Below, one piece after another: positions 2,648-16,359 of a stretch of 17,955 nucleotides of DNA. The translations under genes were made by a program, and so were the position numbers. Position 1 is the first letter of the stretch, and every line of letters starts with the position of its first letter. The DNA comes from a virus (lineage: Duplodnaviria; Heunggongvirae; Uroviricota; Caudoviricetes). Location: IMG/VR virus record IMGVR_UViG_2529292723_000018; one strand, given 5' to 3'. The notes beneath the pieces were generated by a model, which was given only the letters and a program-made list of their open reading frames with translations, ran no database searches and had not been told where the DNA came from.

Positions 2648-2696
2648 CCTACTGATAAATAAGATTAAAAATCACAATACAGATACGTTTGAGCTT

Positions 2697-2720
2697 CATT
2701 GCAATACGCATTGCAATACA
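2697..2720. repeat. tandem CATTGCAATAC(G/A) repeats near left end of E2 (candidate integrase arm-type or regulatory sites)
   Basis: Two tandem 12-mers; a near-identical tandem pair at 12781..12806 just upstream of the int start codon. Confidence 0.45.
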
Positions 2721-3069
2721 CGGTTGCTGGGTGATTTCAAAAGATGAATGCTGCGAAGGATGGAAATTTGGGAACTAGGTGGTGAATAGCACAACAAAAA
2801 ATCAGAATTCTACTAGCTTAAAATGATGCAAAAAGCATTCGTGGCATCGCAAGCGCTGTACAATTCGTTCTATAATGAAGAAAATTTCTAACAGACTTTA
2901 TCATTCAAAGGTGGAGGAGATGACAGCAATGCAACATGCATCACGCTCATACTTGAATTGTAAAGCTATCGTTAGAATCACAGCCTTTTTGTTCCGCTGA
3001 TCTAACGATAAAACTAGTGGTAAAAGGTATATTTTTTAATTTTTCAGACGCTGGCGCGGGGTAATTAAA

Positions 3070-3372
3070 ATGAAATTTGTAAATATACGGTCATCCGAGT
3101 TGCCTGAAATAGATACCTTTGTAAAAGAATGTATCAACCAAGGACAATGGACTCTTTTCAAGGCCGAGAAGGGTGCAGTTAATGATAATAAAGTTGCTTT
3201 TTTTCTAAAGGCTGGCAAAGATTTCTTTGCATTAAATAACAGAGGAAGTGTTATCTCTGTATTTCAATCATTAGATTATAATCTTGAAATGAATGAGGTA
3301 ATTCATTTTTCAGATATTCCTAAACCTGAATCGTTGAGCAATATTGCTAGCTTAGGATTTGCTAGAGTTTAA
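3070..3372 (+). CDS. hypothetical protein (100 aa), first gene of AT-rich cargo operon
   Basis: ATG at 3070; 18-bp gap to next gene on same strand; visibly AT-rich codon usage unlike the core genes; no recognised motif. Confidence 0.55.
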   Translation: MKFVNIRSSELPEIDTFVKECINQGQWTLFKAEKGAVNDNKVAFFLKAGKDFFALNNRGSVISVFQSLDYNLEMNEVIHFSDIPKPESLSNIASLGFARV

Positions 3373-3390
3373 TATATAAGGATATGTACG

Positions 3391-4281
3391 ATGGGATTAA
3401 TATCTGGAAATACACATTGGGTATTATTTTTACCTTGTGAGCACCAACCAGAAGATCGCCATGTTCAAGATTTAGTTCATGGCGTCTTTTGCTTAGAATC
3501 CTCAGGTATACAGCCATCTAATATTAGCATATATATTGATGGCCAAAATAGAGCCAACTTTAATAAGTTAATTTCGATTGCAACCCAACATAATTATACT
3601 ATCAAGCCTACATCTGAATTTTTCACCGACTGCGATACAAATAGTTATGAAAATCTAGTTATGTTTGTGACCGGACACGGAAGTATGAATGGTTTGGACT
3701 CTGCGCCGATCATAACCCCATACCGTTTATTGGACAGGTTAAAAAACACTCCTGTTCTCAAGCAAGCAATCGTTTATCTTGGTCAATGTTTCGCTGGTGT
3801 TTTCAACTACTTACCTGCTGGGCAGCGTAAGAGAGGTGAAGATGCCGACCCCGATGTCATTCTTATCGGGGCTACGAGTCTTCATGAAAGTTTGAGTAAT
3901 CCAACAACGGAAAATATTAATGGTATAGATTTTCCTTGGGTTGCAAATCAATTTTTATATCATGTATTTAAGTGGATATCATCCCCGAATGATATCGATG
4001 GGGATGGAAAACATACAGTAATTGACTCTTATAAGTATGCTGGAATCTCATCAAACATGACCAATCGTAGAATGAAGATAGGTTCTTTTGTAGCTTCGGT
4101 AGACTTGCATGAGCAATGGAATACTGCAAAAAAAGATCATGAAGCTAACTTGGCTGATCCACAAAAACTACTCCGTTATAGAGCATTAGATCAGCAATAC
4201 TATGAAAAACTGAACATTAACTATATTCATCAAGAGTGCTGGATATTAAATTCTGTACCTGCACAATCTGTTGAATTCTAA
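3391..4281 (+). CDS. predicted caspase-like (clan CD-type) cysteine peptidase, candidate His96/Cys133 dyad; candidate anti-phage effector
   Basis: TAAGGA Shine-Dalgarno 7 nt upstream; hydrophobic strand + His-Gly (NLVMFVTGHGS) and hydrophobic strand + Gln-Cys (AIVYLGQCFAGVF) 37 residues apart, the arrangement seen in caspase/legumain-type peptidases; AT-rich. Confidence 0.5.
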   Translation: MGLISGNTHWVLFLPCEHQPEDRHVQDLVHGVFCLESSGIQPSNISIYIDGQNRANFNKLISIATQHNYTIKPTSEFFTDCDTNSYENLVMFVTGHGSMNGLDSAPIITPYRLLDRLKNTPVLKQAIVYLGQCFAGVFNYLPAGQRKRGEDADPDVILIGATSLHESLSNPTTENINGIDFPWVANQFLYHVFKWISSPNDIDGDGKHTVIDSYKYAGISSNMTNRRMKIGSFVASVDLHEQWNTAKKDHEANLADPQKLLRYRALDQQYYEKLNINYIHQECWILNSVPAQSVEF

Positions 4282-4285
4282 TCCT

Positions 4286-4453
4286 TTACTTTTTTGAATA
4301 GATTGCTGCAAGTGCCGTTTTGAGGTCGTAATTTCGGCACTTGCAACTGCAACCAGAAATAGGGCGAACGTTTGACAAACGTTTAGCTATAGTCTGCCGA
4401 TGAAATCCAGTCACTTCCGCCAACTCACTTAAATTTAGAACTATCTTTTTCAT
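4286..4453 (-). pseudogene. remnant of Nu1-like terminase small subunit (55 codons, HTH portion only)
   Basis: Hand translation MKKIVLNLSELAEVTGFHRQTIAKRLSNVRPISG... parallels NINQLAAIAGICRQTAAARLKNIQPAGG of the 285..770 protein, then diverges; ends 4 bp from the stop of the convergent cargo gene; not in ORF track (under 60 aa). Confidence 0.45.
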
Positions 4454-4547
4454 CATAATTACCCTTCAGATGTCGAACAAATAACATACAATCCATCATC
4501 TTTTCCACTTTTATAAAGTTTTACCTAATAAAATTCAGTTAGTTAGC

Positions 4548-4632
4548 GAATGATGATGATGTCTATAAAATTCAAAAACTAGCCGTTTCCCGCGATGCCG
4601 CCGCCCCGTGGCAGGCATCCCCGCCGGGAGTA
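4548..4632 (-). other. lambda-like cos site (cos2) of element E2
   Basis: Minus strand reads CCACGGGGCGGCGGCATCGCGGGAAACGGCTAGTTTTTGAATTTT...CATCATCATCATTCG; same position (capsid 3' end to terminase remnant) as cos1. Confidence 0.55.
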
Positions 4633-4634
4633 CC

Positions 4635-4662
4635 TTTTAAAAAAGGGCAGCATCTGCCGCCC
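4635..4662 (-). terminator. putative rho-independent terminator after capsid gene
   Basis: Short GC hairpin (GGCAG/CTGCC) followed by a T-run on the minus strand. Confidence 0.4.
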
Positions 4663-4670
4663 TCCTGTCG

Positions 4671-6587
4671 TCATGCCGCCCCGCTCGACTTCACCATGCC
4701 CCGATAATCCAGCGCCGCCACGCCAGCATCGATACGCACCTTCCATGCAATACCGTCCACAGTGAAGCCCTCCTGCTGTTCCAGATACGGCACGTCCATT
4801 CCATCCAGATATGCCACCTCGATAGTGTCGGTGCCTTGCGCTGCAGTGACGTACCACTCCTTGTTGTTGGCCTTGTCCAGTCGCGGCTCAACCACTACCT
4901 GCGCCATATCCTTCACGACGTTGATAATGCCTGGGTTCTGGTTCAGCATACCGTTCTGGTCTACCGGGAACAGCGAAGATGATGACAGCACAGCTCGATT
5001 GGCTGCGCCTTCCAGCGCGGCAGGTACAAGGATATAGGCTGGGATAACATTAATAGGATCGCCGTTCGCATCCTCCTGCAGACGCATAGCCTTACGGGCC
5101 TCATTGAGTCCGTCTGTATCCATCCCTTTAGCGATGAGGTTTTTATGGTCGGCGTGGAACAACGCTTTACCATCTGTGAATTTGCTGTTGGCGGTCAGTT
5201 GCAGGTAGACCAGATTGCCAACCGTTCGTGCGGCGGCACGCCCCATTGCCTGTGGAATGGTCGTGAGCTGGCTCAGGTCATCGTTGATAATGGCCTGGCG
5301 TGTAACAGAGAAGATGTTTCCATAGGTGGCCAGCGCGATCGGCACACCGCTGTCGCTGGTAGTGACATATTTGTATTCAGCACCTTCCGGGACTTTATCC
5401 AGTTCTGAAAAACCATTCAGACCGACACGTTTAGCCTCATGGAAATTCGACAGAGAACCGGTCTTTGTCCACTGCTGGAAAGTTTCCCCGCTGTTCTGCC
5501 AGCCAGTCAGCACCGACTTTTCAGCACCACCAGCCAGGATATGAGAGAAATCACTGGTGCTGTGCGTAAATGCCAGGTTCACGATCTGCGAGCGATTCCC
5601 GAAACCACTGACGCTGATACCACGATCCACCAGCGAAGCCTGCGCCATTTCAAACAGACTCATCATGGCGTAAGGGTTTCCCCTTTCGGCGCGTTCGTGA
5701 CCCAGACGGGCAAAAAGCCCCTGGCGGATAGCATCGCCGGTAATGTTGCCGTTACCTGCGTAAATGTGCGCGTTACTGGTTTTATCCGATGGGGTCGAGG
5801 TCTTACCCAGTGCCGTCAGCAGCATGTCTTTTGCTTTTTCAGGCGTGCAATCCACATCCTCCAGACACTGCATCTTGAGAGAATCATGCTTGCCGCCGAA
5901 CATGGCAAACAGATCCTTAATCTCGTTGATGCGGTTCTGTTCCGGTACAGCGCTACTGGTGGAACCTTTCGGGCTGGTGATCATCCCTTTAATTTCTTTT
6001 GGCATATGCTCAAAATCCTCAATTCGTTTTGACTCAATACAGGCCATTGCCCTGACGGCGGGTAACAATTCGTCAGCAAAACCCTGCGCTACACATTCGC
6101 GGCCATCCATCCATGTTTCATCCTCCAGCATTTCCGCCAGTGATTCGGCTGATTTACCCGTTTTGCGTGCATATGCCGGGATCAAGACACTTTCGACTTT
6201 ATCCAGAAGTTCGGCGTAGTCGCGCATGTCGTTGGCGTTCCCACCAGAGATTCCCCACGGTTTGTGAATCATCATGAGTGCGTTTTCGGGCATAACGATA
6301 CGGTCGCCAGCCATTGCAATAACTGACGCCATAGACGCGGCGAGACCGTCGATCTGCACTGTAATTTTTGCCGGGTGTTTATTCAGAAGGTTATAGATAG
6401 CGATGCCGTCAAAAACATCGCCACCGGGTGAATGAATGTGCAGGCTGATATGGGAGATATCGCCTAGGGCTTTCAGGTCTTCGGAGAACTGCTGCGCCGT
6501 AATACCCCAGCCGCCGATCTCTTCGTAGATGCTGATATTGGCGCTGGTGCCATCGCTGGCCGCTTTGATGGTGTACCAGCCTTTCAT
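4671..6587 (-). CDS. ClpP-like prohead protease fused to HK97-fold major capsid protein (638 aa), intact
   Basis: ATG at 6587 with AAGGGGA Shine-Dalgarno; N-terminal ClpP-like motifs (GLAASMAS, MMIHKPWG); long C-terminal capsid-like region; ATGA overlap with upstream small gene. Confidence 0.85.
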   Translation of the reverse strand: MKGWYTIKAASDGTSANISIYEEIGGWGITAQQFSEDLKALGDISHISLHIHSPGGDVFDGIAIYNLLNKHPAKITVQIDGLAASMASVIAMAGDRIVMPENALMMIHKPWGISGGNANDMRDYAELLDKVESVLIPAYARKTGKSAESLAEMLEDETWMDGRECVAQGFADELLPAVRAMACIESKRIEDFEHMPKEIKGMITSPKGSTSSAVPEQNRINEIKDLFAMFGGKHDSLKMQCLEDVDCTPEKAKDMLLTALGKTSTPSDKTSNAHIYAGNGNITGDAIRQGLFARLGHERAERGNPYAMMSLFEMAQASLVDRGISVSGFGNRSQIVNLAFTHSTSDFSHILAGGAEKSVLTGWQNSGETFQQWTKTGSLSNFHEAKRVGLNGFSELDKVPEGAEYKYVTTSDSGVPIALATYGNIFSVTRQAIINDDLSQLTTIPQAMGRAAARTVGNLVYLQLTANSKFTDGKALFHADHKNLIAKGMDTDGLNEARKAMRLQEDANGDPINVIPAYILVPAALEGAANRAVLSSSSLFPVDQNGMLNQNPGIINVVKDMAQVVVEPRLDKANNKEWYVTAAQGTDTIEVAYLDGMDVPYLEQQEGFTVDGIAWKVRIDAGVAALDYRGMVKSSGAA

Positions 6588-6796
6588 TTTTCCCCTTCCG
6601 TTACAGCGAAGCCATTTTCATCAAGCCATGCGTTGACTGCGTGCCGGACTACCTGTGCCACTCCGGGCAATGGCTGGACAGGAAGATTTTTCAGATGATC
6701 GTTGCGGTATTGCTTAAGGCGTACAACGGTTTGCGCGTCCAGATGTACGGAGCCGCCTTTAGTCTCGCCAGTGTTTAAATCGTTAATGTCACTCAT
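6584..6796 (-). CDS. small conserved protein (70 aa) upstream of and translationally coupled to protease-capsid gene
   Basis: ATG at 6796 with AGAGGA Shine-Dalgarno (ORF-track start at 6844 is TTG); homolog at 13258..13464 (MSDINDLNTGE... vs MSCINDLNTGD...). Confidence 0.55.
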   Translation of the reverse strand: MSDINDLNTGETKGGSVHLDAQTVVRLKQYRNDHLKNLPVQPLPGVAQVVRHAVNAWLDENGFAVTEGEK

Positions 6797-6941
6797 GATG
6801 TCCTCTACTGTATAAGTAAACAGGTTATGATGATTGATCACCAAAAGTGGTAAGTGAACAATTTTTTATCTGAAAAATAGATTTATGATGAAAAAAAATT
6901 TTTGTATGGTCTTAGATTGGAATAAACAGAAAGGTTAAAAA

Positions 6942-7655
6942 ATGGATCTCACTCGTAATGACGAACTCCTTTTGAATGATGCAGCTAGACGCTCATTTCG
7001 GGATATGGCAGACCAGGATTATCTCTCAGCTCGTCTGTGTTATAAGCACAAATTGAATTTTCAATTTTTATGGCTTTCGCAACAAGCCGTAGAGAAATAT
7101 ATTAAAGCGATTTTACTTTATAATAGAGTTCCAGTATTAAAATTAAATCACAATTTAAACAAAGGGCTGGCAAAGATTAAAGAAATCCCATATCTTGAAT
7201 TAGACCTAGATGTAAAAAGTGAGCGATTCATAGATTATCTCAATGAGCAGGGCCCAAATAGATACTTCCAAAACACTATGTATACCGAAGGCTTTGAAAT
7301 TATAACCTTGGATAGAACCATCTGGGAATTAAGAAGATACTGCAAGCCACTAAACTACTCAATTACTAACCCAAAAGGTGAAGTGATAGAAATGTTAGAA
7401 CATGAATTGAGTAGCATAAAAAATTCGAAGTCGAGGCCTTATCATACGTTCAAACTATTTGGAGGTTACTTAGAAAAAAGATTAAAAGATAATAAATTCA
7501 ATCAGGGCGACATACTTACATGGAAAAATTTATTTTTTGGAAGAAATAAAAAAAATGCAATTAGAATTGGAAGATCAATGCATGTAACTCATCCAACTCA
7601 TTATATGTACCCAAATGCAACGGAAATGCTCAGTCGTTTCTTTAAAATAAAATAA
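6942..7655 (+). CDS. HEPN-like protein (tentative), candidate abortive-infection effector; AT-rich cargo
   Basis: N-terminal helix pair with QQAVEKYIKAILL resembling the HEPN QAxEKxLKA signature; R-x5-H (RIGRSMH) near C-terminus; opposite strand to flanking core genes. Confidence 0.5.
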   Translation: MDLTRNDELLLNDAARRSFRDMADQDYLSARLCYKHKLNFQFLWLSQQAVEKYIKAILLYNRVPVLKLNHNLNKGLAKIKEIPYLELDLDVKSERFIDYLNEQGPNRYFQNTMYTEGFEIITLDRTIWELRRYCKPLNYSITNPKGEVIEMLEHELSSIKNSKSRPYHTFKLFGGYLEKRLKDNKFNQGDILTWKNLFFGRNKKNAIRIGRSMHVTHPTHYMYPNATEMLSRFFKIK

Positions 7656-7744
7656 TTACATTCCAATTTTATTTACCGCTGTTAAATAAGTAAGGTATAT
7701 CTTTATTTATCGACATTGATAATCATGAAAGAGTATATCTTTTT

Positions 7745-7960
7745 TGCCGCACCTAGCGCATTTCTCACCGCACTTTCATCCCGCGCACTTAGGTGCGCAA
7801 TCCAACATGCACCGTACAGCCATTAAAACCAGTAATGGGGCGGGTTTGCAGGTGATTAATGCCAAACCGCGCACTTTCTTCGTATATACATGGAAAAAGT
7901 GCGGCAAGTGTATGTTTTATGAGCATTTCGCGCATCACGCGCATTTCTTGCCGCACTTTT
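7745..7960. repeat. iteron-like repeat cluster (TTGCCGCAC / CGCACTTT / GCGCATTTC, direct and inverted); candidate origin for the E2 replication protein
   Basis: TTGCCGCAC at 7745 and 7949, its complement at 7900; CGCACTTT four times; GCGCATTTC at least twice; lies immediately 3' of the replication gene, as the TGTTCACC iterons do in E1. Confidence 0.45.
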
Positions 7961-7964
7961 CAGG

Positions 7965-9374
7965 TTAAATTATCGTGATATCTCCTGAATCATCGATAAA
8001 GATAATATTCTCCCTAACGAGTTTATCAAGCCAGCGTTTAAAACCTTTGCGGCCGTTCTCTCCAAACAGAGTGGTAATATCATCACGTATAACAGAGACA
8101 TTACACGGTTCACCTTTGGCTTTTCGGCTCCGGATTGACTGCCAGAGTGCAGCGTGGTTCCCAGTCAGGTGCTTGATATCAGCAAGTTCCGGATCAGGTT
8201 CTCGTGCCTCTCGTGGCAGGTCCTGCACCACCAGCGACGAAATAAGCTCACCATCACGATCTGTGAACAATTCGATCGGACGCAGATCGAATGCGGCCTG
8301 TTTCGGCTCCTCCGCATCTTTCATCTTCGTACAGGTCAGGATTATCGCCCCACCATCCCCCTCGCGCCGGACATTGAACTCTGCATCGAGCGCAGCCCTG
8401 AAAGCACTGGAACCACGTGCGCCTTTGGTATCGTCTTTTCCTGAATGATGCACCACCAGCAACGTGGCGCCAGTCTCACGCTTGATGACGTCGCAGCCTT
8501 CAATAAACGCCCCCATGTCACGAGCATCGTTTTCATCGTTACCACCAAAGCACCGCGCTAGAGTATCTATGACAATCAGGCGAACCGGCTGCCCCGTTTT
8601 GGACTTAACGTCACGCGCAGCTTTGATCATCTCCTGCATTTCCTCACGGCGAACCGGGAAAACCGGACGGTTTACCAGATACAGATTATTTAGTTTCACA
8701 CCATGTTTTTTCTCCCACGCCTTTATTCGCCGCGGAACGCCAATACCACCTTCACCTACTACGTACATCACAGCGCCGGCTGATACCGACTTCCCCGCCC
8801 ACTTCATCCCGGCTGCAACGTGACAAGCCCAGGACACCGCCAGAAAACTTTTATACGAACCGCTCGGGCCGTAGATACTGCTCAGGCTGTTAGCGGGAAG
8901 ATAACTTTTTAACGTGTAATCCTGCTCCTGATCGTACCCATCAGAGCCCACGCTTAAAGGAAGGCTGTGCCGCAGTGACTCCTCTCGCACAGAGACTTCA
9001 ACCTGTTCACGCAGACGAGAAAGATATTCCCTCCAGTCCTCAGGCTCATGGTCGGGGATTCCTTTATACAATTTGGCATCCTGCACGCCAGCCAGCGCCA
9101 GCTTTTCAGCAATGTTATTAATCTGGATAGGCTTTATATTCCCTGCCAGGTAAATCCGCACGGCACGACGGCCATCATCCACAATGCGCAGGTTATCCAG
9201 CTCTGCCAGTTGTTTTGGCCCAAGGTAAACAGGAGGAGTGGTATCTTCGGCAATCTGTTTACCAAGCCCCTCTTCCCAACCCTTCGCATGGGCGTATGCT
9301 TCTGACCCGGCAAAAATAACTGCCTCCGTGAATTTTTCTTTTGGCAGGTGTTTCAGATTCGGTGCGTTTTTCAT
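7965..9374 (-). CDS. replication protein: N-terminal domain shared with the P4-family primase at 14246..16063 plus AAA_25/RecA-like ATPase (pri-rep type)
   Basis: ATG at 9374 with AAGGGG Shine-Dalgarno; deviant Walker A (YGPSGSYKSF); LLVVHHSGKD...RGSSA motif typical of RepA-like ATPases; first ~110 aa align with the E1 primase (KxAPNLKH...). Confidence 0.75.
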   Translation of the reverse strand: MKNAPNLKHLPKEKFTEAVIFAGSEAYAHAKGWEEGLGKQIAEDTTPPVYLGPKQLAELDNLRIVDDGRRAVRIYLAGNIKPIQINNIAEKLALAGVQDAKLYKGIPDHEPEDWREYLSRLREQVEVSVREESLRHSLPLSVGSDGYDQEQDYTLKSYLPANSLSSIYGPSGSYKSFLAVSWACHVAAGMKWAGKSVSAGAVMYVVGEGGIGVPRRIKAWEKKHGVKLNNLYLVNRPVFPVRREEMQEMIKAARDVKSKTGQPVRLIVIDTLARCFGGNDENDARDMGAFIEGCDVIKRETGATLLVVHHSGKDDTKGARGSSAFRAALDAEFNVRREGDGGAIILTCTKMKDAEEPKQAAFDLRPIELFTDRDGELISSLVVQDLPREAREPDPELADIKHLTGNHAALWQSIRSRKAKGEPCNVSVIRDDITTLFGENGRKGFKRWLDKLVRENIIFIDDSGDITII

Positions 9375-10248: not shown

Positions 10249-10298
10249 ATAACGTACGTACGTAATAGCAACATCCTATGAGGTTACGTACGTACATG
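10249..10298. promoter_or_regulatory. two palindromic operator-like sites (ACGTACGTACGT core) between divergent RHH gene and leftward operon
   Basis: TAACGTACGTACGTAATA and TTACGTACGTACATG about 34 bp apart; second overlaps the start region of the RHH gene. Confidence 0.5.
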
Positions 10299-10487
10299 TC
10301 AACAATAAAACGAGATAAAACACCCAAAGGAGAGGGCTTGTCTCCGACATTCCAAATCCGAATAAGTCCTGAATTGCGCCAGCAGATGAATGAAGCTGCT
10401 GAGCGTGAGGGAGTAAGTCTTGGTAATTGGCTTAAAGGTCTGGCTAGAAATGAACTTATTAAGCAAGGAATTGAACCTAAAGGTTAG
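10278..10487 (+). CDS. ribbon-helix-helix (Arc/CopG-like) transcriptional regulator, candidate E2 repressor
   Basis: RISPELRQQMNEAAEREGVSLGNWLKGLARNEL fits a beta-strand plus two helices; true start may be ATG 10296 (MSTIKRDK); adjacent to palindromic operators. Confidence 0.6.
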   Translation: MRLRTYMSTIKRDKTPKGEGLSPTFQIRISPELRQQMNEAAEREGVSLGNWLKGLARNELIKQGIEPKG

Positions 10488-10540
10488 TTTTCACAAGCAC
10501 TCTTTGATTTTTTCAGTAAAAATTAAATTAAGGAAATTCT

Positions 10541-11251
10541 ATGGATGATTTATATACACCATCTGAATATTTTATGTTCGTAGAGAAATTTGATCATTAC
10601 TTCCCACGAAAAAGCCCTTTTAACTCATTATTATTCGAGTTCAATTATAGATTAGAAGATATAGTTGTTTTTCATCGCTTTGTTATCAACACCTATTCAA
10701 AAAATAAAAAAGCAATTGATGTACAATATAATAAATTTAATTTTCTTGATGATAAACAAAAAAATTCCCTTTCTGATGACGAGTATGAAGCGTATCAACT
10801 CAGGTTTGCAAGGCATATGGAATACATTAACCATCAAACTGATTTGAATGAAAAAGCGTCTTACATTGCTAACGATAGTGTCGTTATAAACTTATGGGCC
10901 ATGAATGAACAATATATGACTAGAGGATTGGCCAACCTAATATCTCAAAAAGAAAATAAAAATTTAAATGAAGTTAAAACGCCTTACAAATGGGATACAA
11001 TCAAAAGTAAATTCCTGTCATATGGAATCAACTTTGAGACATTGCCATCTTATGATGACATTAATGAATGTAGAGTACTGAATAATAAAATAAAACATCT
11101 GAACATAGTAGATTCTGGTTTAGAAGTTTTCCCTCCCTTCAAAGGTAAGCTTAACGAATCACTTACTGGCATGGCCTTTCCTCTTCAAAAATATATCATA
11201 GGCTCTCATCACTTTATAGGAATGCTATTAGAAGAGTGCTCATTAAAATAA
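10541..11251 (+). CDS. hypothetical protein (236 aa), AT-rich cargo in the RHH-alpA slot
   Basis: AAGGA Shine-Dalgarno; AT-rich, Asn/Lys/Ile-rich; the same slot in E1 holds only a 62-aa ORF; no recognised motif. Confidence 0.55.
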   Translation: MDDLYTPSEYFMFVEKFDHYFPRKSPFNSLLFEFNYRLEDIVVFHRFVINTYSKNKKAIDVQYNKFNFLDDKQKNSLSDDEYEAYQLRFARHMEYINHQTDLNEKASYIANDSVVINLWAMNEQYMTRGLANLISQKENKNLNEVKTPYKWDTIKSKFLSYGINFETLPSYDDINECRVLNNKIKHLNIVDSGLEVFPPFKGKLNESLTGMAFPLQKYIIGSHHFIGMLLEECSLK

Positions 11252-11297: not shown

Positions 11298-11543
11298 TCA
11301 TTTATTTTTATCGAACCAATCTCCTTTAATCCAAGCTTGCATCTCTGAGAGCCGGTAAGCAACTGCTGACGGCCCAATTTTGATTCGCTTAGGAAATTTT
11401 CCTTCCTGTTCCATGCGCCAGCGCGTTGAGTTAGACAACGTAGTCATAGCCCGGCATTCAGGTTCGCGAATCATTCTGTCAAGGTCAGGCATGTACTGGA
11501 GATCTTCTTTTTTCACAACGGATAACATAGCCATATCAGGCAC
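11298..11543 (-). CDS. alpA: AlpA-family excisionase / transcriptional regulator
   Basis: MIREPECRAMTTLSNSTRWRMEQEGKFPKRIKIGPSAVAYRLSEMQAWI matches the AlpA pattern as recalled; start may be the internal ATG at 11492; 8-bp overlap with int. Confidence 0.8.
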   Translation of the reverse strand: MPDMAMLSVVKKEDLQYMPDLDRMIREPECRAMTTLSNSTRWRMEQEGKFPKRIKIGPSAVAYRLSEMQAWIKGDWFDKNK

Positions 11544-12771
11544 TCCTTTTCTTAATTACTTTTACTGTATTTTCTTCACCCACCAGCCCATCAAGGTAGT
11601 CAACCCATCGGTCCAGTGCTTCTTGCTTTTGAGGGATATACTTGCTGCGGTTATAGACTCCGGCCACGCCCTTTATGGTATGCCCCAGCAGCTGCTCTAC
11701 GACCATAAAATCAACGCCCATATCGTTAAGGCTTGTCGAGAACGTTCGTCTCAAATCATGTAATGACCAGCGTTTTTCATGTTTCAGAGAGATAAAGTTT
11801 GTGCATCCCATCGTACTGACGGTTGAATCAGATTTCAGTTCGCCAAATATGTAGCCTCTCCTTTTAGTCTCTTCGTGCAGGTTTACGATCCACTGGCGCA
11901 TTTTTTGAGGAACGGGGCGAATAATTTCTTCGCCGTTTTTACTGTGCTCTTTAGGTACTGTCCAAATCCACTTATCGAAATCCCACTCATCCCATGTAGA
12001 TAAACGCGCCTCACTCAGCCTGCAGCCAAACACGAGACACAAAATCGCCATCCTTTTTTTGTAATTCATTACACGGGTTTTGCCTTTACCATGAAAGTAC
12101 ACTCCCCACAGATCGGCGACGTAGCTTTCCTCAAGTAGCCGCTCTCTCTTGTTCTGATACTTACCGATATCACCAGGGCTCAAATCATCAAGCACATTGC
12201 ACCGCACATACTGGCGCACCCGGCAGTATTTGAAGATCTGCTTTAACTCAATCAGCATTGCAGCAGACTGAACCGGCGCGATTTTCTTTATGCGGTCGAA
12301 GCACTTGATCCAGTCTGACAGACCGCATTTCTCGACAGGAAACCCGCCGATGTAGGGAAAAATGTATCTCTCATAACGGCGATAGAGCCGTAAAGTCTCT
12401 TTGCGCTTTTCCCTGGCATAGTTATCAAACCAGTAATCGATAGCGTTCTTCACAGTTACTGGAGTGAACAGGTTCTCTTTGGTGAGTTTGTTCTCTATTC
12501 GTGGGTCGAGTCCCTGAGATAGCCATGCCCGGCACTCGTCCCTTTTCTCTCTGGCCTGTTTAAGGGTCATATCTGGATACTTGCCTAACGTCATCCAGAC
12601 GGGGGCGCTTTGTCGGCCGGAATGTCTGAAGAAATACACAAAGCTCACAGTGCCACTAACGCTCACTCTGACAGACAGTCCACGACCATCTGCCACCATC
12701 TTTTGACGCGGCTGGGGTTTACCATGTAAGGCCTTTAACGCCTTGTCGCTTAACTTGTTCTCGCCCGCCAT
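11536..12771 (-). CDS. int: P4-type tyrosine integrase
   Basis: N-terminal arm-binding pattern (GRGLSVRVSVSGTVSFVYFF...LGKYPDMTLKQAREKR); C-terminal catalytic-region motifs LHDLRRTF and LLGHT...VYNRSKY; adjacent to right junction of E2. Confidence 0.9.
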   Translation of the reverse strand: MAGENKLSDKALKALHGKPQPRQKMVADGRGLSVRVSVSGTVSFVYFFRHSGRQSAPVWMTLGKYPDMTLKQAREKRDECRAWLSQGLDPRIENKLTKENLFTPVTVKNAIDYWFDNYAREKRKETLRLYRRYERYIFPYIGGFPVEKCGLSDWIKCFDRIKKIAPVQSAAMLIELKQIFKYCRVRQYVRCNVLDDLSPGDIGKYQNKRERLLEESYVADLWGVYFHGKGKTRVMNYKKRMAILCLVFGCRLSEARLSTWDEWDFDKWIWTVPKEHSKNGEEIIRPVPQKMRQWIVNLHEETKRRGYIFGELKSDSTVSTMGCTNFISLKHEKRWSLHDLRRTFSTSLNDMGVDFMVVEQLLGHTIKGVAGVYNRSKYIPQKQEALDRWVDYLDGLVGEENTVKVIKKRSA

Positions 12772-13258
12772 AAAACCTCATTCTGCAATACACATTGCAA
12801 TACACACTTAACTGCAACGCCGAAAAACAGTAGAAAAGCAATGCAAACAACACCTCTTCTTTCTTCATAATTAACAATAAGTTAATGAATGAATACGGTT
12901 CTTCATGCGTACCCATGAGGTAGTGTGAAGGATAATGGATCATCATCATGGCGTTCTCCGGCATCACTACACGATCGCCAGCCATTGCGACCACCGAAGC
13001 CATTGAAGCCGCAACACCATCGATATAAACCGTAATGTCTGCCGGATGATTCCGTAGCAGGTTATAGATGGCGATGCCTTCAAACACATCACCACCTGGT
13101 GAATGGATCCTCAGATTGATATGTGAAACATCGCCAAGGGCTTTCAGGTCTTCCGCGAACTGCTTTGCAGTAACACCGAAGCCGCCAATCTCCTCATAGA
13201 TAGATATATCCGCCGCTCCACGAACATCCGCCGCCTTAATGGTGTACCAGCGATTCAT
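12719..13258 (-). CDS. N-terminal fragment of ClpP-like prohead protease (first 108 codons authentic; remainder is read-through into E2 DNA); disrupted gene
   Basis: MNRWYTIKAA...GVAASMASVVAMAGDRVVMPENAMMMIH is about 75% identical by eye to the N-terminus of the intact fusion, then diverges at the 12-bp repeat. Confidence 0.7.
   Translation of the reverse strand: MNRWYTIKAADVRGAADISIYEEIGGFGVTAKQFAEDLKALGDVSHINLRIHSPGGDVFEGIAIYNLLRNHPADITVYIDGVAASMASVVAMAGDRVVMPENAMMMIHYPSHYLMGTHEEPYSFINLLLIMKKEEVLFALLFYCFSALQLSVYCNVYCRMRFYGGREQVKRQGVKGLTW
12781..12806. repeat. tandem TGCAATACA repeats 10 bp upstream of int start
   Basis: CTGCAATACACATTGCAATACACAC; matches the tandem pair at 2697..2720. Confidence 0.45.
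12935..12946. repeat. right copy of 12-bp direct repeat ATGGATCATCAT (candidate att core, right junction of E2)
   Basis: Identical to 2618..2629; protease homology begins exactly here on the minus strand. Confidence 0.6.
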
Positions 13259-13464
13259 TATTCCCCCACCGATGCAAAACCATTCTGATTAAGCCAGGTG
13301 TTTACGGCATGTCTGACAATCTGCGCCACACCTGGTAATGGTTTGTCAGGATGATGATTTATATGGTCGATCCTGTACTGCTTAAGGCGCATAACGGTCT
13401 GCGCATCCAGATGAACGGAACCACCCCTGATATCGCCCGTGTTCAGGTCATTAATACAACTCAC
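13258..13464 (-). CDS. small conserved protein (68 aa), homolog of 6584..6796; GTG start
   Basis: GTG at 13464 with AGAGGA Shine-Dalgarno; stop overlaps protease ATG by 1 nt. Confidence 0.5.
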   Translation of the reverse strand: MSCINDLNTGDIRGGSVHLDAQTVMRLKQYRIDHINHHPDKPLPGVAQIVRHAVNTWLNQNGFASVGE

Positions 13465-13564
13465 AGTAACTTCCTCTTACTGACTAAACTGTGCACATTA
13501 TTGATCGATAAAAGTGGTAAATAAATATATTTCTATCATAAAAATAGATTAATCAGATTCAGAC

Positions 13565-13590
13565 ACAAAAAAGCCGGAGAAAATCCGGCA
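13565..13590 (-). terminator. rho-independent terminator
   Basis: GCCGGA-gaaaa-TCCGGC hairpin preceded on the + strand by AAAAAA, i.e. followed by T-run on the minus strand. Confidence 0.55.
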
Positions 13591-13776
13591 TAAATACCCC
13601 GCCATCTGAACACGTTTTGACACTGGCAACTCCACCTGGCAGGTGAAAAACAGATTTATTTATATATTTCAATTAATTGCAAGCTGGTCTAATGACAGGG
13701 AGAAAAAAATATTGTACAGGTGAAAACAGAAATAATTTTTAATTATCAATAAATTATCAAACATGCTGCCGCCGCC

Positions 13777-13848
13777 ATGAAAATGCAAAAACCAGCCTTT
13801 TTCCGCGACGCTCCCGCCCCGTGGCAGGTCACTACACCGGGAGGACCC
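13777..13848 (-). other. cos-like segment (cos3), about 72 bp near-identical to cos1 but lacking the CATCATCAT cosB-like flank
   Basis: Two mismatches to cos1 across the cosN-like core; flanking sequence differs immediately beyond GCATTTTCAT. Confidence 0.5.
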
Positions 13849-13850
13849 AT

Positions 13851-13878
13851 AAAAAAGCCGGATTGCTCCGGCTTCTGT
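13851..13878 (-). terminator. rho-independent terminator
   Basis: GCCGGA-ttgc-TCCGGC hairpin with a 6-A run on its + strand 5' side. Confidence 0.5.
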
Positions 13879-14002
13879 TACTCGTTGCTTAAAACGGTAT
13901 GTTATCCCCGTACGGATCATCATTCCCCGCCTGTTGTTTTGGTGTGCTTCGCTGTCATAGGCTTTATCTCACAGCAGTAAATTAAAATTTTTGCGTTTTA
14001 AC

Positions 14003-14231
14003 CCTTCACCTGTTCACCTTTTGATATTTTCTCTTTTAATTCATAATGTTAAGGGGTGAACAGTTTCACAAAAACTATTCACCAACTGTTCACCACTGTT
14101 CACCCTTGAAGCTCAATAAACAATCAAAAAGGTGAACAGTGAATAGTTTGGTGAACAGTTCATAAATAACTGTTCACCCTATAATATACTGATATAAAAG
14201 ATATTTATGACAGGGTGAACAGTGGTGAACA
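14003..14231. repeat. P4-type iteron cluster: at least 10 copies of TGTTCACC / GGTGAACA in both orientations (candidate ori/crr)
   Basis: Exact octamers at 14011, 14055, 14087, 14097, 14131, 14150, 14171, 14214, 14224 plus variants; TGTTCACC is the octamer bound by P4 alpha protein at ori and crr. Confidence 0.75.
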
Positions 14232-14245
14232 GTTATTCCATAAGT

Positions 14246-16063
14246 TTAATTTTTGCTATCGTCATTAGTGACCGATACACATGATGGCATCCAGTCTTCT
14301 GATTCCTCCGTCAGTGTCACGTTTGAACGCAAACCGTGCTTCGTTTTCCGTTTCATATACTCCCTGCCATATTCCGCCATTGCCCCCGGCATATCTTTAC
14401 CGAAGCGCGTCAGTGTTACAGGTTTACCAAACCCATGTGCCCTCATATAAGCCAGATAGGCATGATAGAGATACCTGCGTGGGCTGAATGGCACAATTTC
14501 AGCATTACCCACTAACAGGCCATCACACATTACCGACGCCATGAGATAGCCGCAGAAGTCCACCAGCGAATCCCCCTCTCGCTTTATCGCCAGTGCTTCT
14601 TCAGATTTCTGCTGCTCATATAACAGGCGTCTGGCTTCGTCCTGGTCAGCAAACCGTGTAAGCAGATGGCGAATCACTACCGCCAGCTCACCTTCTATTT
14701 TTTCCGCCAGCATTGGATCACGTTCGTTCTCCGGTACAACTTCCGAAAAATTGAATATCACCCGACGACGTGAGATCCCCCCGCTGCGGTCACTGAATGA
14801 CATGGCGTTATTGTTAACCGCCAGCACTACTGCCGGAATACGCGTTGAGTAGGGGGCTTTGTGTTTCGGGTCAATTGCCACCTTGTCACCGCCTGTAATA
14901 GCCTTAATCCCTGCCCCATCACCAGCGTAGCGGGTCATATCCGGCATGATAATCAGCGAAAAGCCAACCACTAACGCGCGTTCCCTTGCATCTTCCAGCG
15001 CCTTCATGCTTGCCGATACTGTGTTGGCCTTACCCGCCAGCATGGTGCAAATCTCCGCCATCACGCTTTTACCACTTCCCCCTGGACCTGTTACCTCAAT
15101 GAATAACTGCCAGTCGTACCGGTTCGCCAGCACCATGAATAATGCAGCCAGTACGCGATCCGCCTTGCGGTCATTCTCAGCCACCGAACGGCGTAACCAC
15201 TTCCAGAAATTCGGCGCATGTGTTGCCAGCGTTTCCCCCTCTGCTGGTGGGCTGAAAGGTAATTCACTGGCAATTAACAACCAGTCGTTTTTGTTATGCT
15301 CCCGAAAATTACCTGTTCTGGTATCAAATACCCCGTTACTGAATCCAATCAGGTTACGGGCTGTATTCCCCATTACAGGCAAACTTAACTTCATGGTATC
15401 GACCGCCGATTTAATGGCGTTCTGCGAATAGCTGATCTCCGCATCAATGAAAATCTGTGCCATAGCTCGCTGTAATTCTTTATCCTGTACTGGCTCCCAT
15501 ACAACGCCGTTGTAATGGTGAACAGTGTCAGAGTCAGCATGAATCGCCAGTTCACCGCCATAATGTGCCAGGAGAACTTCGCCGCGTTGACTTGCTCCCA
15601 TCTGGTTAAGCGCCAGTGATGAAGCGTTATCGTCTTTTACCCGCTCTTTTTTCTTTACAGGCAGTTCAACTACCTTTTTCTTTTCCGCCTGCTCTGCCCG
15701 TTCACGTTCCAGATATTCGCGCCAGTTCTCCCGTTTCTGGCTGTGCATTCCTTCAGGATAATAATCAGCATCCCTGACACCTGCCGCTGCCAGTTTCTGC
15801 CCGATGGTATTAACAAGTCCCGGACGCAATAACCCCGCCTGATAGAGACGCACGCGATAGCGTCCGTCTGGTACGATTTGCAGGTTGTCCAGTTCGGCAA
15901 GTTGTTGCTCTCCAAGCCAGACAGGTGGCACGTTATCGCCAGCCAGTCGCCCGTCCTGTTCCTGCCACTGCTTCGCATGTGCCCACGCATCACTACCCGC
16001 AAAAATGATGACTTCCGTCATTTTGTCACGCGGTTGGTGTTTTAAATTTGGCGCTTTTTTCAT
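14246..16063 (-). CDS. P4-family primase / SF3 (D5-like) helicase
   Basis: Start placed at ATG 16063 (MKKAPNLKH, GGAGAG Shine-Dalgarno; the ORF-track start at 16078 is GTG); Walker A GPGGSGKS; cognate TGTTCACC iterons immediately downstream. Confidence 0.8.
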   Translation of the reverse strand: MKKAPNLKHQPRDKMTEVIIFAGSDAWAHAKQWQEQDGRLAGDNVPPVWLGEQQLAELDNLQIVPDGRYRVRLYQAGLLRPGLVNTIGQKLAAAGVRDADYYPEGMHSQKRENWREYLERERAEQAEKKKVVELPVKKKERVKDDNASSLALNQMGASQRGEVLLAHYGGELAIHADSDTVHHYNGVVWEPVQDKELQRAMAQIFIDAEISYSQNAIKSAVDTMKLSLPVMGNTARNLIGFSNGVFDTRTGNFREHNKNDWLLIASELPFSPPAEGETLATHAPNFWKWLRRSVAENDRKADRVLAALFMVLANRYDWQLFIEVTGPGGSGKSVMAEICTMLAGKANTVSASMKALEDARERALVVGFSLIIMPDMTRYAGDGAGIKAITGGDKVAIDPKHKAPYSTRIPAVVLAVNNNAMSFSDRSGGISRRRVIFNFSEVVPENERDPMLAEKIEGELAVVIRHLLTRFADQDEARRLLYEQQKSEEALAIKREGDSLVDFCGYLMASVMCDGLLVGNAEIVPFSPRRYLYHAYLAYMRAHGFGKPVTLTRFGKDMPGAMAEYGREYMKRKTKHGLRSNVTLTEESEDWMPSCVSVTNDDSKN

Positions 16064-16359
16064 TTCTGCTCTCTCCACGCGGCAATCATGTTTTTCAGTT
16101 CCTGTAGTTTTTTATCCACATCCACACGTGACACATGGTTATTTCTGGAAGGCGGGATTTCCCGCCGGAATCTGCAAATAAAGATCTCCACGTTCAGCGA
16201 GCTATGAAATGAATAGCCATCACGAATAAAGTACACACGGTCAAACATTATCGATTTTACTGTTACTCTGTTGCCGTTCTTATCCCGATAAATAGCGCCG
16301 GGGATAATTTTGGGATGTGCATAACCGCTGGCAGTCAAGCCAGATAAATACGTTCTCAT
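16060..16359 (-). CDS. small protein (99 aa), homolog of 9371..9694
   Basis: ATGA overlap with primase start; shared RDGYS motif. Confidence 0.5.
   Translation of the reverse strand: MRTYLSGLTASGYAHPKIIPGAIYRDKNGNRVTVKSIMFDRVYFIRDGYSFHSSLNVEIFICRFRREIPPSRNNHVSRVDVDKKLQELKNMIAAWREQK

What the first reader, a model, noticed from the sequence alone, without database searches (positions are those of the whole stretch)
6942..7655. HEPN-like single-gene cargo between the capsid module and the replication origin
The 237-aa protein is AT-rich and transcribed opposite to the flanking core genes. Its N-terminus has a HEPN-like helix pair (QQAVEKYIKAILL) and its C-terminus an R-x5-H motif (RIGRSMH). 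The equivalent slot in E1 has no gene. HEPN RNases are common abortive-infection toxins, so this is a candidate standalone defence gene in a satellite hotspot.
Basis: partly seen in the sequence, partly recalled or inferred. Interest (0 to 1): 0.6.

Follow-up and report, generated by a model that had tools for sequence, protein, structure and literature searches.

The report
Solo HEPN gene in PICI cargo slot

Summary

It lies outside the HEPN domain, varies even among close homologs, and such a pattern appears in 78% of shuffles. The invariant residues across 125 diverse members are E51-x3-K55, H70, R107-Y108, R131 and N196. That matches the HEPN-T pattern, with the histidine relocated.

The gene sits in a true variable slot of an EcCICFT073-type PICI, between the replicase/ori and the capsid operon. 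Between ≥95%-identical flanks, other E. coli PICIs carry SSB plus a small ORF, unannotated spacer, or nothing. Only 34 of 5426 E. coli genomes have any allele.

The family is large (412 clusters at 50% identity with E≤1e-30). It has no conserved partner gene and is absent from 50,697 phage genomes. Members occur inside a BREX operon, in an integron-like array, on plasmids, and next to NACHT, Old-like and Lamassu genes.

A defence function is plausible (about 0.5) but untested. It would be a new member of a known kind.

The parts
6942..7655 (+). Gene for the 237-aa HEPN-family protein (stop codon included). It is identical to RefSeq WP_000366548.1, 'HEPN domain-containing protein'.
   Evidence: ORF list and translation. 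PGAP annotation in 9 E. coli genomes at >=99.8% identity. SD-like AAAGG at 6930-6934.
6954..7346 (+). HEPN domain proper (aa 5-135), with helices 5-35, 39-60, 72-80, 91-103 and 119-131. It carries the invariant E51 (7092-7094), K55 (7104-7106), H70 (7149-7151), R107-Y108 (7260-7265) and R131.
7347..7652 (+). Family-specific C-terminal extension (aa 136-237), mixed alpha/beta. It has invariant or near-invariant G175, L177, E178, L192 and N196.
6890..6941 (+). Allele-specific leader that travels with the HEPN gene. No promoter was identified.
   Evidence: This stretch diverges between HEPN alleles while the block to its left is conserved. The variable segment in E. coli PICIs starts about 57 bp upstream of the ATG. 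The sigma-70 scan found nothing upstream of the gene.
6831..6889 (.). Conserved ~55-nt block of the PICI backbone (GATC..AAAAGTGGTAAGTRAAC..TAAAAATAGATTTAT). It is probably the control region of the divergent capsid operon and is not part of the cargo.
   Evidence: It is shared by PICIs carrying 62-66%-identical HEPN alleles. It lies inside the flank that is also matched in HEPN-less PICIs. Its function is inferred.
7656..7742 (.). AT-rich 3' spacer after the HEPN stop codon. It has an A/T-only hairpin (7645-7674) and no canonical terminator.
7743..7960 (.). Iteron-like repeats (CCGCACTT(T)/GCGCACTT in both orientations) immediately 3' of the replicase gene. This is the presumed PICI replication origin.
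   Evidence: Repeat families D1, D3, D4 and inverted repeats I1-I3, I5, I6. Gram-negative PICIs have the ori immediately 3' of the replication initiation gene (PMC6092414). The ori assignment is inferred.
7965..9374 (-). PICI replicase, a RepA-family helicase (AAA_25). It forms the right flank of the slot.
   Evidence: PF13481 at 1.7e-41, phrog_2850 at 3e-182, and the PGAP name.
6584..6796 (-). Small protein of about 70 aa, the first gene of the capsid operon and the left flank of the slot. It is a core PICI gene and not a partner of the HEPN gene.
   Evidence: phrog_4934 at 1.9e-23, and the PGAP CDS. Homologs are present upstream of the capsid gene in PICIs that lack HEPN (L020-L025).
4671..6587 (-). 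ClpP-like prohead protease/major capsid protein fusion, the PICI morphogenesis gene.
   Evidence: PF25209 at 1.2e-56 and PF00574 at 2.8e-35, and the PGAP name.
13259..13982 (.). It has no HEPN and holds only small ORFs.
   Evidence: blastn and tblastn, and the annotation.

Best explanation
The gene is accessory cargo of an EcCICFT073-type phage-inducible chromosomal island (PICI). It is inserted, with about 55 bp of its own leader and about 130 bp of trailer, in a variable slot between the replicase/ori and the capsid operon.

It encodes a stand-alone member of the classical HEPN-T (PF05168) clade, with a private ~100-aa C-terminal domain.

The most likely role (inferred, not shown) is a single-protein, phage-triggered toxin of the abortive-infection type. 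In this reading the HEPN domain binds and probably cleaves RNA. The site would be built from E51-x3-K55 (helix 2), R107 (end of helix 3) and the relocated H70. Activity would stay off until infection, with the C-terminal domain as the likely regulatory or sensing part. The island would thereby protect its host, and itself, from phages it cannot exploit.

Shown: the fold, residue conservation, the solo status, the variability of the slot, and the family's distribution.

Inferred: RNase activity, toxicity, the trigger, and the anti-phage effect.
For: Fold and family:
- PF05168 scores above its gathering cut-off, and 112 of 125 relatives also hit it.
- The model has pLDDT 95 and pTM 0.91.

Candidate active site:
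- E51, K55, H70, R107, Y108, R131 and N196 are invariant at 28-42% identity.

Cargo status:
- GC is 0.32 against 0.52 in the flanks.
- Only 34 of 5426 E. coli genomes carry any allele.
- With both flanks at >=95% identity, other PICIs carry SSB plus an 81-aa ORF, about 720 bp of unannotated DNA, or about 480 bp.
- In other genera the slot holds unrelated low-GC ORFs of 249, 192, 131 or 90 aa, or is empty.

Solo gene:
- The slot has no partner ORF, no Rfam match and no tandem repeat.
- No Pfam family recurs in more than 2 of 105 nearest neighbours.

Defence association:
- One homolog sits inside a type 1 BREX operon between PglX and PglZ.
- Others sit in an integron-like cassette array, beside HicAB, beside an AAA_21+DUF4435 Old/PARIS-like gene, and beside a protein of at least 2143 aa with a weak NACHT hit.
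- One is on a conjugative Legionella plasmid near antirestriction and Abi genes.
- Neighbours include LmuB, GmrSD, type IIG RM, bSEFIR and PDC-S18.

Other support:
- The family is absent from 50,697 phage genomes and from BFVD.
- Single-protein HEPN defences have precedent: HepS (PMC13043305), Tha and DS-38.
Against: - No experiment exists for this family. It has no PADLOC, NCBIfam or informative PHROG hit, and no paper cites its accessions.
- The canonical Rx4-6H motif is absent: no H or D is conserved 4-6 residues after R107.
- Some HEPN proteins are thought to be non-catalytic (PMC3710099).
- I could not read the model's coordinates, so whether H70, R107, E51 and K55 cluster in space was not verified.
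- Many homologs lie among ordinary metabolic genes, and the neighbour survey had no control set.
- The slot also carries non-defence-looking cargo (SSB).
- None of the four other cargo ORFs found in this slot matched a defence model.
- No promoter was found upstream of the gene.
Confidence: 0.5

Rival explanations
1. It is a non-catalytic RNA- or nucleotide-binding HEPN protein that serves the island's own life cycle. For example, it could modulate helper-phage or PICI late-gene expression or packaging (helper interference), instead of acting as a general anti-phage toxin.
For: - The canonical Rx4-6H motif is absent, and HEPN domains lacking the motif have been proposed to act as RNA-binding proteins (PMC3710099).
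- In PICIs, the region after the ori is where interference and morphogenesis genes lie (PMC6092414).
- In Enterobacterales the gene is seen mostly in this one PICI slot, across elements with different replicases and att sites.
Against: - The same family occurs without any PICI, in BREX operons, integron-like arrays, plasmids and plain chromosome in distant phyla. Its function therefore cannot depend on PICI or helper components.
- Most related PICIs lack it.
- It is transcribed opposite to the PICI operons.
- Invariant E, K, H and R residues point to chemistry or tight ligand binding more than to a simple scaffold.
Confidence: 0.2
2. It is the toxin of an addiction or stabilisation module that keeps the island in the chromosome, with an antitoxin that has not been recognised (a small RNA or a host factor).
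For: - One homolog lies directly after HicAB.
- The gene converges on the replicase gene, so antisense transcription is conceivable.
Against: - No MNT or other conserved partner appears in any of about 70 contexts.
- The slot has no small ORF, Rfam match or repeat array.
- Unlike HepT, the family lacks the Rx4HxY motif.
- The island has an integrase and a replicon, and most relatives do without this gene.
Confidence: 0.12
3. It is a counter-defence factor. In this reading a HEPN-type nucleotide-binding protein soaks up or degrades host immune signals or RNAs, so that the satellite or its helper can replicate.
For: - The HEPN domain was first proposed to be nucleotide-binding, as the substrate-binding subunit of minimal nucleotidyltransferases (PMC3710099).
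- The Legionella plasmid copy sits near an antirestriction gene.
- Mobile elements often carry anti-defence genes in variable slots (general knowledge).
Against: - The family is absent from 50,697 phage genomes and from the viral structure set, which is where anti-defence genes concentrate.
- One copy is embedded inside a BREX operon, and others lie next to NACHT, Old-like and Lamassu genes on chromosomes. That pattern suits a defence gene better.
Confidence: 0.08

Closest known systems
Classical HEPN-T proteins (Pfam PF05168): TT1696 (1ufb), AF0298 (2hsb), ST0689 (1wol), TM0613 (1o3u)
   Same: - Same Pfam model.
- Same EKxxK...GH signature in helix 2 and the following loop.
   Different: - Those proteins are about 120-130 aa single domains, many of them paired with minimal nucleotidyltransferases, and none has a demonstrated function.
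- This protein is 237 aa with a conserved extra C-terminal domain and never has an MNT neighbour.
- Sequence identity is only 14-19%.
HepS of Salmonella prophage Gifsy-1 (PDB 9oik; PMC13043305)
   Same: - A single HEPN protein of similar size (218 aa) carried by a mobile element.
- It acts alone as both sensor and effector of abortive infection.
- This is the working model proposed here.
   Different: - No sequence similarity: the PDB sequence search found nothing at E≤10.
- HepS is prophage-borne. This family is absent from phage genomes.
- HepS's trigger (tail-tip protein) and target (tRNA anticodon loops) are known; here both are unknown.
DS-38 / HEP2 (WP_001313577.1) of DefensePredictor (PMC13092281)
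   Same: An E. coli single-protein system with a PF05168-like HEPN domain, experimentally protective against phages Bas19 and Bas25.
   Different: - It is 366 aa, with a canonical RNRVVH motif and C-terminal zinc fingers.
- Profile comparison with this family gives probability 0.1%, so it is unrelated beyond the superfamily.
HepT/MntA (HEPN-MNT) type VII toxin-antitoxin systems (e.g. SO_3166, 5yep; 7ae2)
   Different: - HepT belongs to DUF86, has Rx4HxY, and is always preceded by an MNT antitoxin that AMPylates it.
- None of these features is present here.
Defence hotspots of phage satellites (P4 psu-int hotspot, PMC9122126; PICI-encoded immune systems)
   Same: A low-GC cargo gene is exchanged between near-identical backbone flanks of a satellite. 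HEPN-domain genes are listed among P4 hotspot cargo.
   Different: - This is a different satellite family (PICI, not P4) and a different position (replicase/ori to capsid operon).
- None of the alternative cargo I scanned in this slot matches a known defence system, and one alternative cargo is an SSB.

Membership tests
HEPN superfamily, HEPN-T clade (Pfam PF05168) | Sequence match to the PF05168 profile above its curated cut-off | tested here: met
   The score is 25.4 bits against a cut-off of 22, over aa 20-101. 112 of 125 family members match, with a best E-value of 6.3e-12.
HEPN superfamily, HEPN-T clade (Pfam PF05168) | Up-down helical bundle fold of HEPN | tested here: met
   [not shown]
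HEPN superfamily, HEPN-T clade (Pfam PF05168) | Ex3[KR] motif with a conserved acidic residue in helix 2 | tested here: met
   E51-K-Y-I-K55 lies in helix 39-60 and is invariant in 125 sequences.
HEPN superfamily, HEPN-T clade (Pfam PF05168) | Rx4-6H catalytic motif at the end of helix 3 | tested here: not met
R107 is invariant and correctly placed after helix 91-103, but no H or D is conserved 4-6 residues later. PMC3710099 records this deviation for HEPN-T, together with 'a conserved H elsewhere'; H70 is invariant here.
HEPN superfamily, HEPN-T clade (Pfam PF05168) | Metal-independent endoribonuclease activity | not testable with these tools
   This needs biochemistry.
HEPN-MNT (HepT/MntA) toxin-antitoxin | Adjacent upstream minimal nucleotidyltransferase gene | tested here: not met
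   No NTP_transf-type neighbour appears in the window. None appears in 12 looked-up contexts, nor among the 25 most frequent Pfam families listed for the 105 nearest neighbours.
HepS-type single-protein HEPN abortive infection | Homology to HepS | tested here: not met
   [not shown]
HepS-type single-protein HEPN abortive infection | Phage-protein-triggered RNase that aborts infection | not testable with these tools
   This needs phage challenge, escaper mapping and RNA cleavage assays.
Catalogued anti-phage defence systems (PADLOC-DB 2.0) | Match to any defence-protein model | tested here: not met
   0 families at E≤0.1.
Gram-negative PICI (EcCICFT073 type), for the host element | The order int, alpA-type regulator, replicase, ori 3' of the replicase, then a capsid homolog, in an element of about 10 kb at a dedicated att site, with no tail or lysis genes | tested here: met
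   The annotation of the locus and of five relatives fits. Iterons were found. The definition comes from PMC6092414.
Gram-negative PICI (EcCICFT073 type), for the host element | Induction and high-frequency transfer by a helper phage | not testable with these tools
   This needs experiments. In this window the elements are tandem and partly truncated.

The most novel reading that the evidence does not exclude
This is the founding example of a widespread, uncatalogued single-gene immune system. It would be a HEPN-T RNase whose catalytic histidine has moved to the start of the helix after helix 2 (H70), coupled to a private C-terminal sensor domain. PICIs, integrons, plasmids and BREX loci would exchange it as a plug-in effector, and in PICIs it might discriminate helper phages from competitor phages.
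Probability: 0.3. Interest if true: 0.6.

Novelty: new member of a known kind. Interest (0 to 1): 0.4.

Why it matters
If the protein is shown to protect against phages, it would add a compact (237 aa), partner-free HEPN effector family to the defence catalogue. The family has about 1,600 clusters at 50% identity at E≤1e-3.

It would also give a natural example of a HEPN active site with a relocated histidine.

It would define a second cargo hotspot type in Gram-negative PICIs (replicase/ori to capsid operon) that could be mined for further systems. Several unannotated low-GC genes already occupy this slot in other genera.

If it is not protective, the finding is an ordinary accessory gene that RefSeq has already labelled correctly.

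Tried and rejected
Rejected on conservation and on chance expectation.
- **Known defence, viral and NCBI family libraries.** No useful hit.
- **Sequence search of the PDB,** with the protein and with the family profile. Only a marginal hit to 1wol.
- **Relationship to validated DS-38/HEP2.** None.
- **A fixed two-gene system with an AAA_21+DUF4435 (Old/PARIS-like) ATPase,** suggested by Marinobacter. It was not reproduced in other marine homologs: one has a different ATPase two genes away, and one has a NACHT protein. It was also not reproduced in the 105-neighbour scan.
- **Hidden partner in the slot** (small ORF, Rfam family or tandem repeats). None found.
- **Degraded HEPN copy in E1.** None found.
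- **Survey of the slot at DNA level with this window's flanks.** Too narrow, because the alleles occur only in the same 9 genomes. It was replaced by a protein-level scan and by the commoner primase-type flanks.
- **AFDB fold search.** Unavailable.
- **Viral fold search.** Nothing.
- **DUF5677 fusion partner of one family member.** No structural or literature lead beyond an enrichment near recombinase-associated defence loci.
- **Promoter and terminator scans around the gene.** Nothing convincing.

Full report
**1. What is there**

The window is an IMG/VR contig (IMGVR_UViG_2534681659_000014). It corresponds to a chromosomal island next to a tRNA-Ile gene downstream of mug and rpoD in E. coli.

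The island is a tandem array of small integrase-bearing elements. The central element reads, on the minus strand:
- integrase (11536-12771);
- an AlpA-like HTH regulator;
- an Icd-like gene;
- a DUF4222 gene;
- a RepA-family helicase (7965-9374);
- a small gene (6584-6796);
- a ClpP-protease/major-capsid fusion (4671-6587).

Further left on the same strand lie a 5'-truncated second copy of the capsid fusion (1028-2647) and a DUF1441 gene (285-857). It is unclear which element these belong to.

This is the layout of Gram-negative PICIs such as EcCICFT073 (PMC6092414). Iteron-like repeats (CCGCACTT) at 7743-7960, immediately 3' of the replicase, fit the expected origin.

The finding's ORF, 6942-7655 on the plus strand, lies between that origin and the capsid operon. 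Its GC is 0.31-0.33 against about 0.52 in the flanks.

**2. The protein**

- Pfam's HEPN model PF05168 matches aa 20-101 above its curated cut-off (25.4 against 22 bits). PADLOC, NCBIfam and PHROGs give nothing useful.
- An AlphaFold2 model built on 34 homologs is very confident (pLDDT 95, pTM 0.91). It shows long helices at 5-35 and 39-60, shorter ones at 72-80, 91-103 and 119-131, then a mixed alpha/beta extension from 136 to 237.

**3. The motif question**

I aligned 34 homologs, then 125 much more diverse members at 28-42% identity to the query.
- Invariant residues: Y27, R31, E51, K55, H70, R107, Y108, R131, L192 and N196.
- Near-invariant residues include D24, D26, K52, Y53, D124, W128, G175 and E178.

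The reference analysis of the superfamily (PMC3710099) describes three relevant features:
- an Ex3[KR] motif in helix 2;
- the Rx4-6H motif at the end of helix 3;

E51-x3-K55, R107 and H70 fit this description exactly. A family-profile alignment to ST0689 places EKxxK and H70 on that protein's "EKAVK…GH".

It is variable even among 60-70%-identical homologs. In addition, 78% of shuffles of this protein contain at least one R-x4-6-H. So the fold assignment is right and the motif assignment is wrong.

I could not read the model's coordinates, so whether E51, K55, H70 and R107 form one site in space remains an inference from the known HEPN topology.

**4. The family**

- A profile search of 1.84 billion representatives finds 1624 clusters at E≤1e-3 and 412 at E≤1e-30. 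Nearly all are 240-260 aa and matched end to end. The two-part architecture is therefore the unit.
- One member is fused to DUF5677.
- Hosts include Enterobacterales, Marinobacter, Alcanivorax, Legionella and Bradyrhizobium, plus many metagenomic lineages.
- There is no homolog in 50,697 phage genomes.
- 21 plasmids carry one.

**5. Is it solo?**

Within the slot there is no other credible ORF, no Rfam family and no tandem repeat.

Across 58 distant loci I called genes and scanned the 105 nearest neighbours. No Pfam family occurs more than twice.

The AAA_21+DUF4435 gene upstream of the Marinobacter homolog is therefore co-location and not a fixed partnership.

**6. Is the slot a hotspot?**

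Yes.

*In E. coli:*
- Only 34 of 5426 complete genomes carry any allele. There are three allele groups, about 62% protein identity apart. Each genome has a single copy.
- Every copy inspected is in this PICI type and this slot, at several att sites and with either a RepA or a D5-type primase replicase.
- A query spanning capsid 5' end, slot and primase 3' end matches 771 genomes in part, but only 22 over at least 80% of its length.
- Elements with both flanks at ≥95% identity carry alternatives: an SSB gene plus an 81-aa ORF on the core strand, about 720 bp of unannotated DNA, or about 480 bp.
- The exchanged segment starts about 57 bp before the ATG and ends about 128 bp after the stop codon.
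- A ~55-nt conserved block at window 6831-6889 belongs to the backbone.

*In other genera:* the slot holds unrelated low-GC ORFs of 249, 192, 131 or 90 aa, or is empty. None of those ORFs hits Pfam or PADLOC.

**7. What it most likely does**

Evidence for a defence role is associative:
- a homolog embedded in a type 1 BREX operon;
- one in an integron-like cassette array;
- one beside HicAB;
- one beside an Old/PARIS-like ATPase;
- one beside a giant NACHT protein;
- one on a conjugative plasmid near antirestriction and Abi genes;
- one between serine recombinases near a P-loop NTPase and a DUF4041 gene;
- among nearest neighbours: LmuB ×2, GmrSD ×2, NACHT-associated REase ×2, type IIG RM, Old/GajA-like, bSEFIR and PDC-S18.

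Many other neighbours are housekeeping genes, and I ran no control set.

Single-protein HEPN defences carried by mobile elements are established. HepS is a tail-tip-triggered tRNA anticodon nuclease (PMC13043305). Tha is another example, and DS-38 is a third. This family is not homologous to them beyond the fold.

I therefore favour a phage-triggered, self-contained HEPN toxin, with the C-terminal domain as regulator or sensor, at about 0.5 confidence. The rivals are a non-catalytic role in the PICI life cycle (0.2), an addiction toxin (0.12) and a counter-defence factor (0.08).

**8. Novelty and verdict**

RefSeq already records the domain identity, so the bare observation is not new. Solo HEPN effectors and cargo hotspots in satellites are both known kinds.

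What is new is modest. It is an uncatalogued, widespread HEPN-T subfamily with a private C-terminal domain and a relocated histidine, sitting in a PICI slot that has not been described as a hotspot in the papers I could search.

I rate it a new member of a known kind, with interest 0.4.

Noticed in passing
window 2650-4670 (ORFs 3070-3372 and 3391-4281, +): A second AT-rich cargo block (GC 0.34-0.40) lies between a 5'-truncated copy of the capsid-fusion gene (1028-2647) and the intact copy (4671-6587). It holds a 100-aa protein (phrog_30138) and a 296-aa protein with no hit in Pfam, PADLOC or NCBIfam. It looks like a recombination scar between tandem PICIs. Strain MS1679 has a similar scar with a different 262-aa gene.
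   Followed up: partly
window 10296-11251 (+): A HicB-family antitoxin gene (PGAP name) is followed by a 236-aa ORF (10541-11251). This ORF has the lowest GC in the window (0.28-0.33) and no hit in any library. It lies between the alpA-like and Icd-like genes. It may be another cargo slot, or a non-canonical HicB-paired toxin.
   Followed up: partly
window 12936-16100: The right-hand element (E1) is a truncated PICI. It has a protease remnant at 12936-13258, which is 72% identical to a capsid-fusion 5' end. From 13983 onwards it is 98.2% identical to the intact MS1679 PICI.
   Followed up: yes
window 7743-7960: Iteron-like repeats CCGCACTT(T)/GCGCACTT occur in both orientations, including a perfect 14-nt inverted pair (7895-7908 / 7947-7960). 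This is the presumed PICI origin.
   Followed up: partly
window 6831-6889: A ~55-nt block is conserved among PICIs carrying different HEPN alleles and among PICIs that lack HEPN. It is probably the control region of the capsid operon.
   Followed up: partly
L108:1880-2544 (E. coli CUVET20-PYO4): The same slot, with ≥95%-identical flanks, carries a single-stranded DNA-binding protein gene plus an 81-aa ORF on the core strand instead of HEPN.
   Followed up: no
L020:4244-4993, L022:8076-8654, L021:8170-8565, L039:8381-8653: In Kluyvera, Trabulsiella and Moellerella PICIs the slot holds unrelated low-GC ORFs of 249, 192, 131 and 90 aa. None hits Pfam or PADLOC, so they are further uncharacterised cargo.
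   Followed up: partly
protein cluster of P0004: The commoner E. coli/Shigella sonnei allele has many 60-158-aa fragments recorded on contigs of up to about 270 kb. This suggests recurrent disruption (an IS insertion?) or assembly breaks within the gene.
   Followed up: no
L011:6001-6768 and L012:2601-3368: A family member is embedded in a type 1 BREX operon, between PglX and a SLFN/AlbA_2-HATPase_c_4-Fic-like_C gene, upstream of PglZ and BrxL.
   Followed up: no
L027-L052: Capsid-fusion homologs at about 57-59% identity lie about 4 kb downstream of a DUF1441 gene in many Enterobacterales. I read these as full prophages, without checking their other genes, so the PICI capsid/DUF1441 genes may derive from this phage group, a possible helper lineage.
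   Followed up: no
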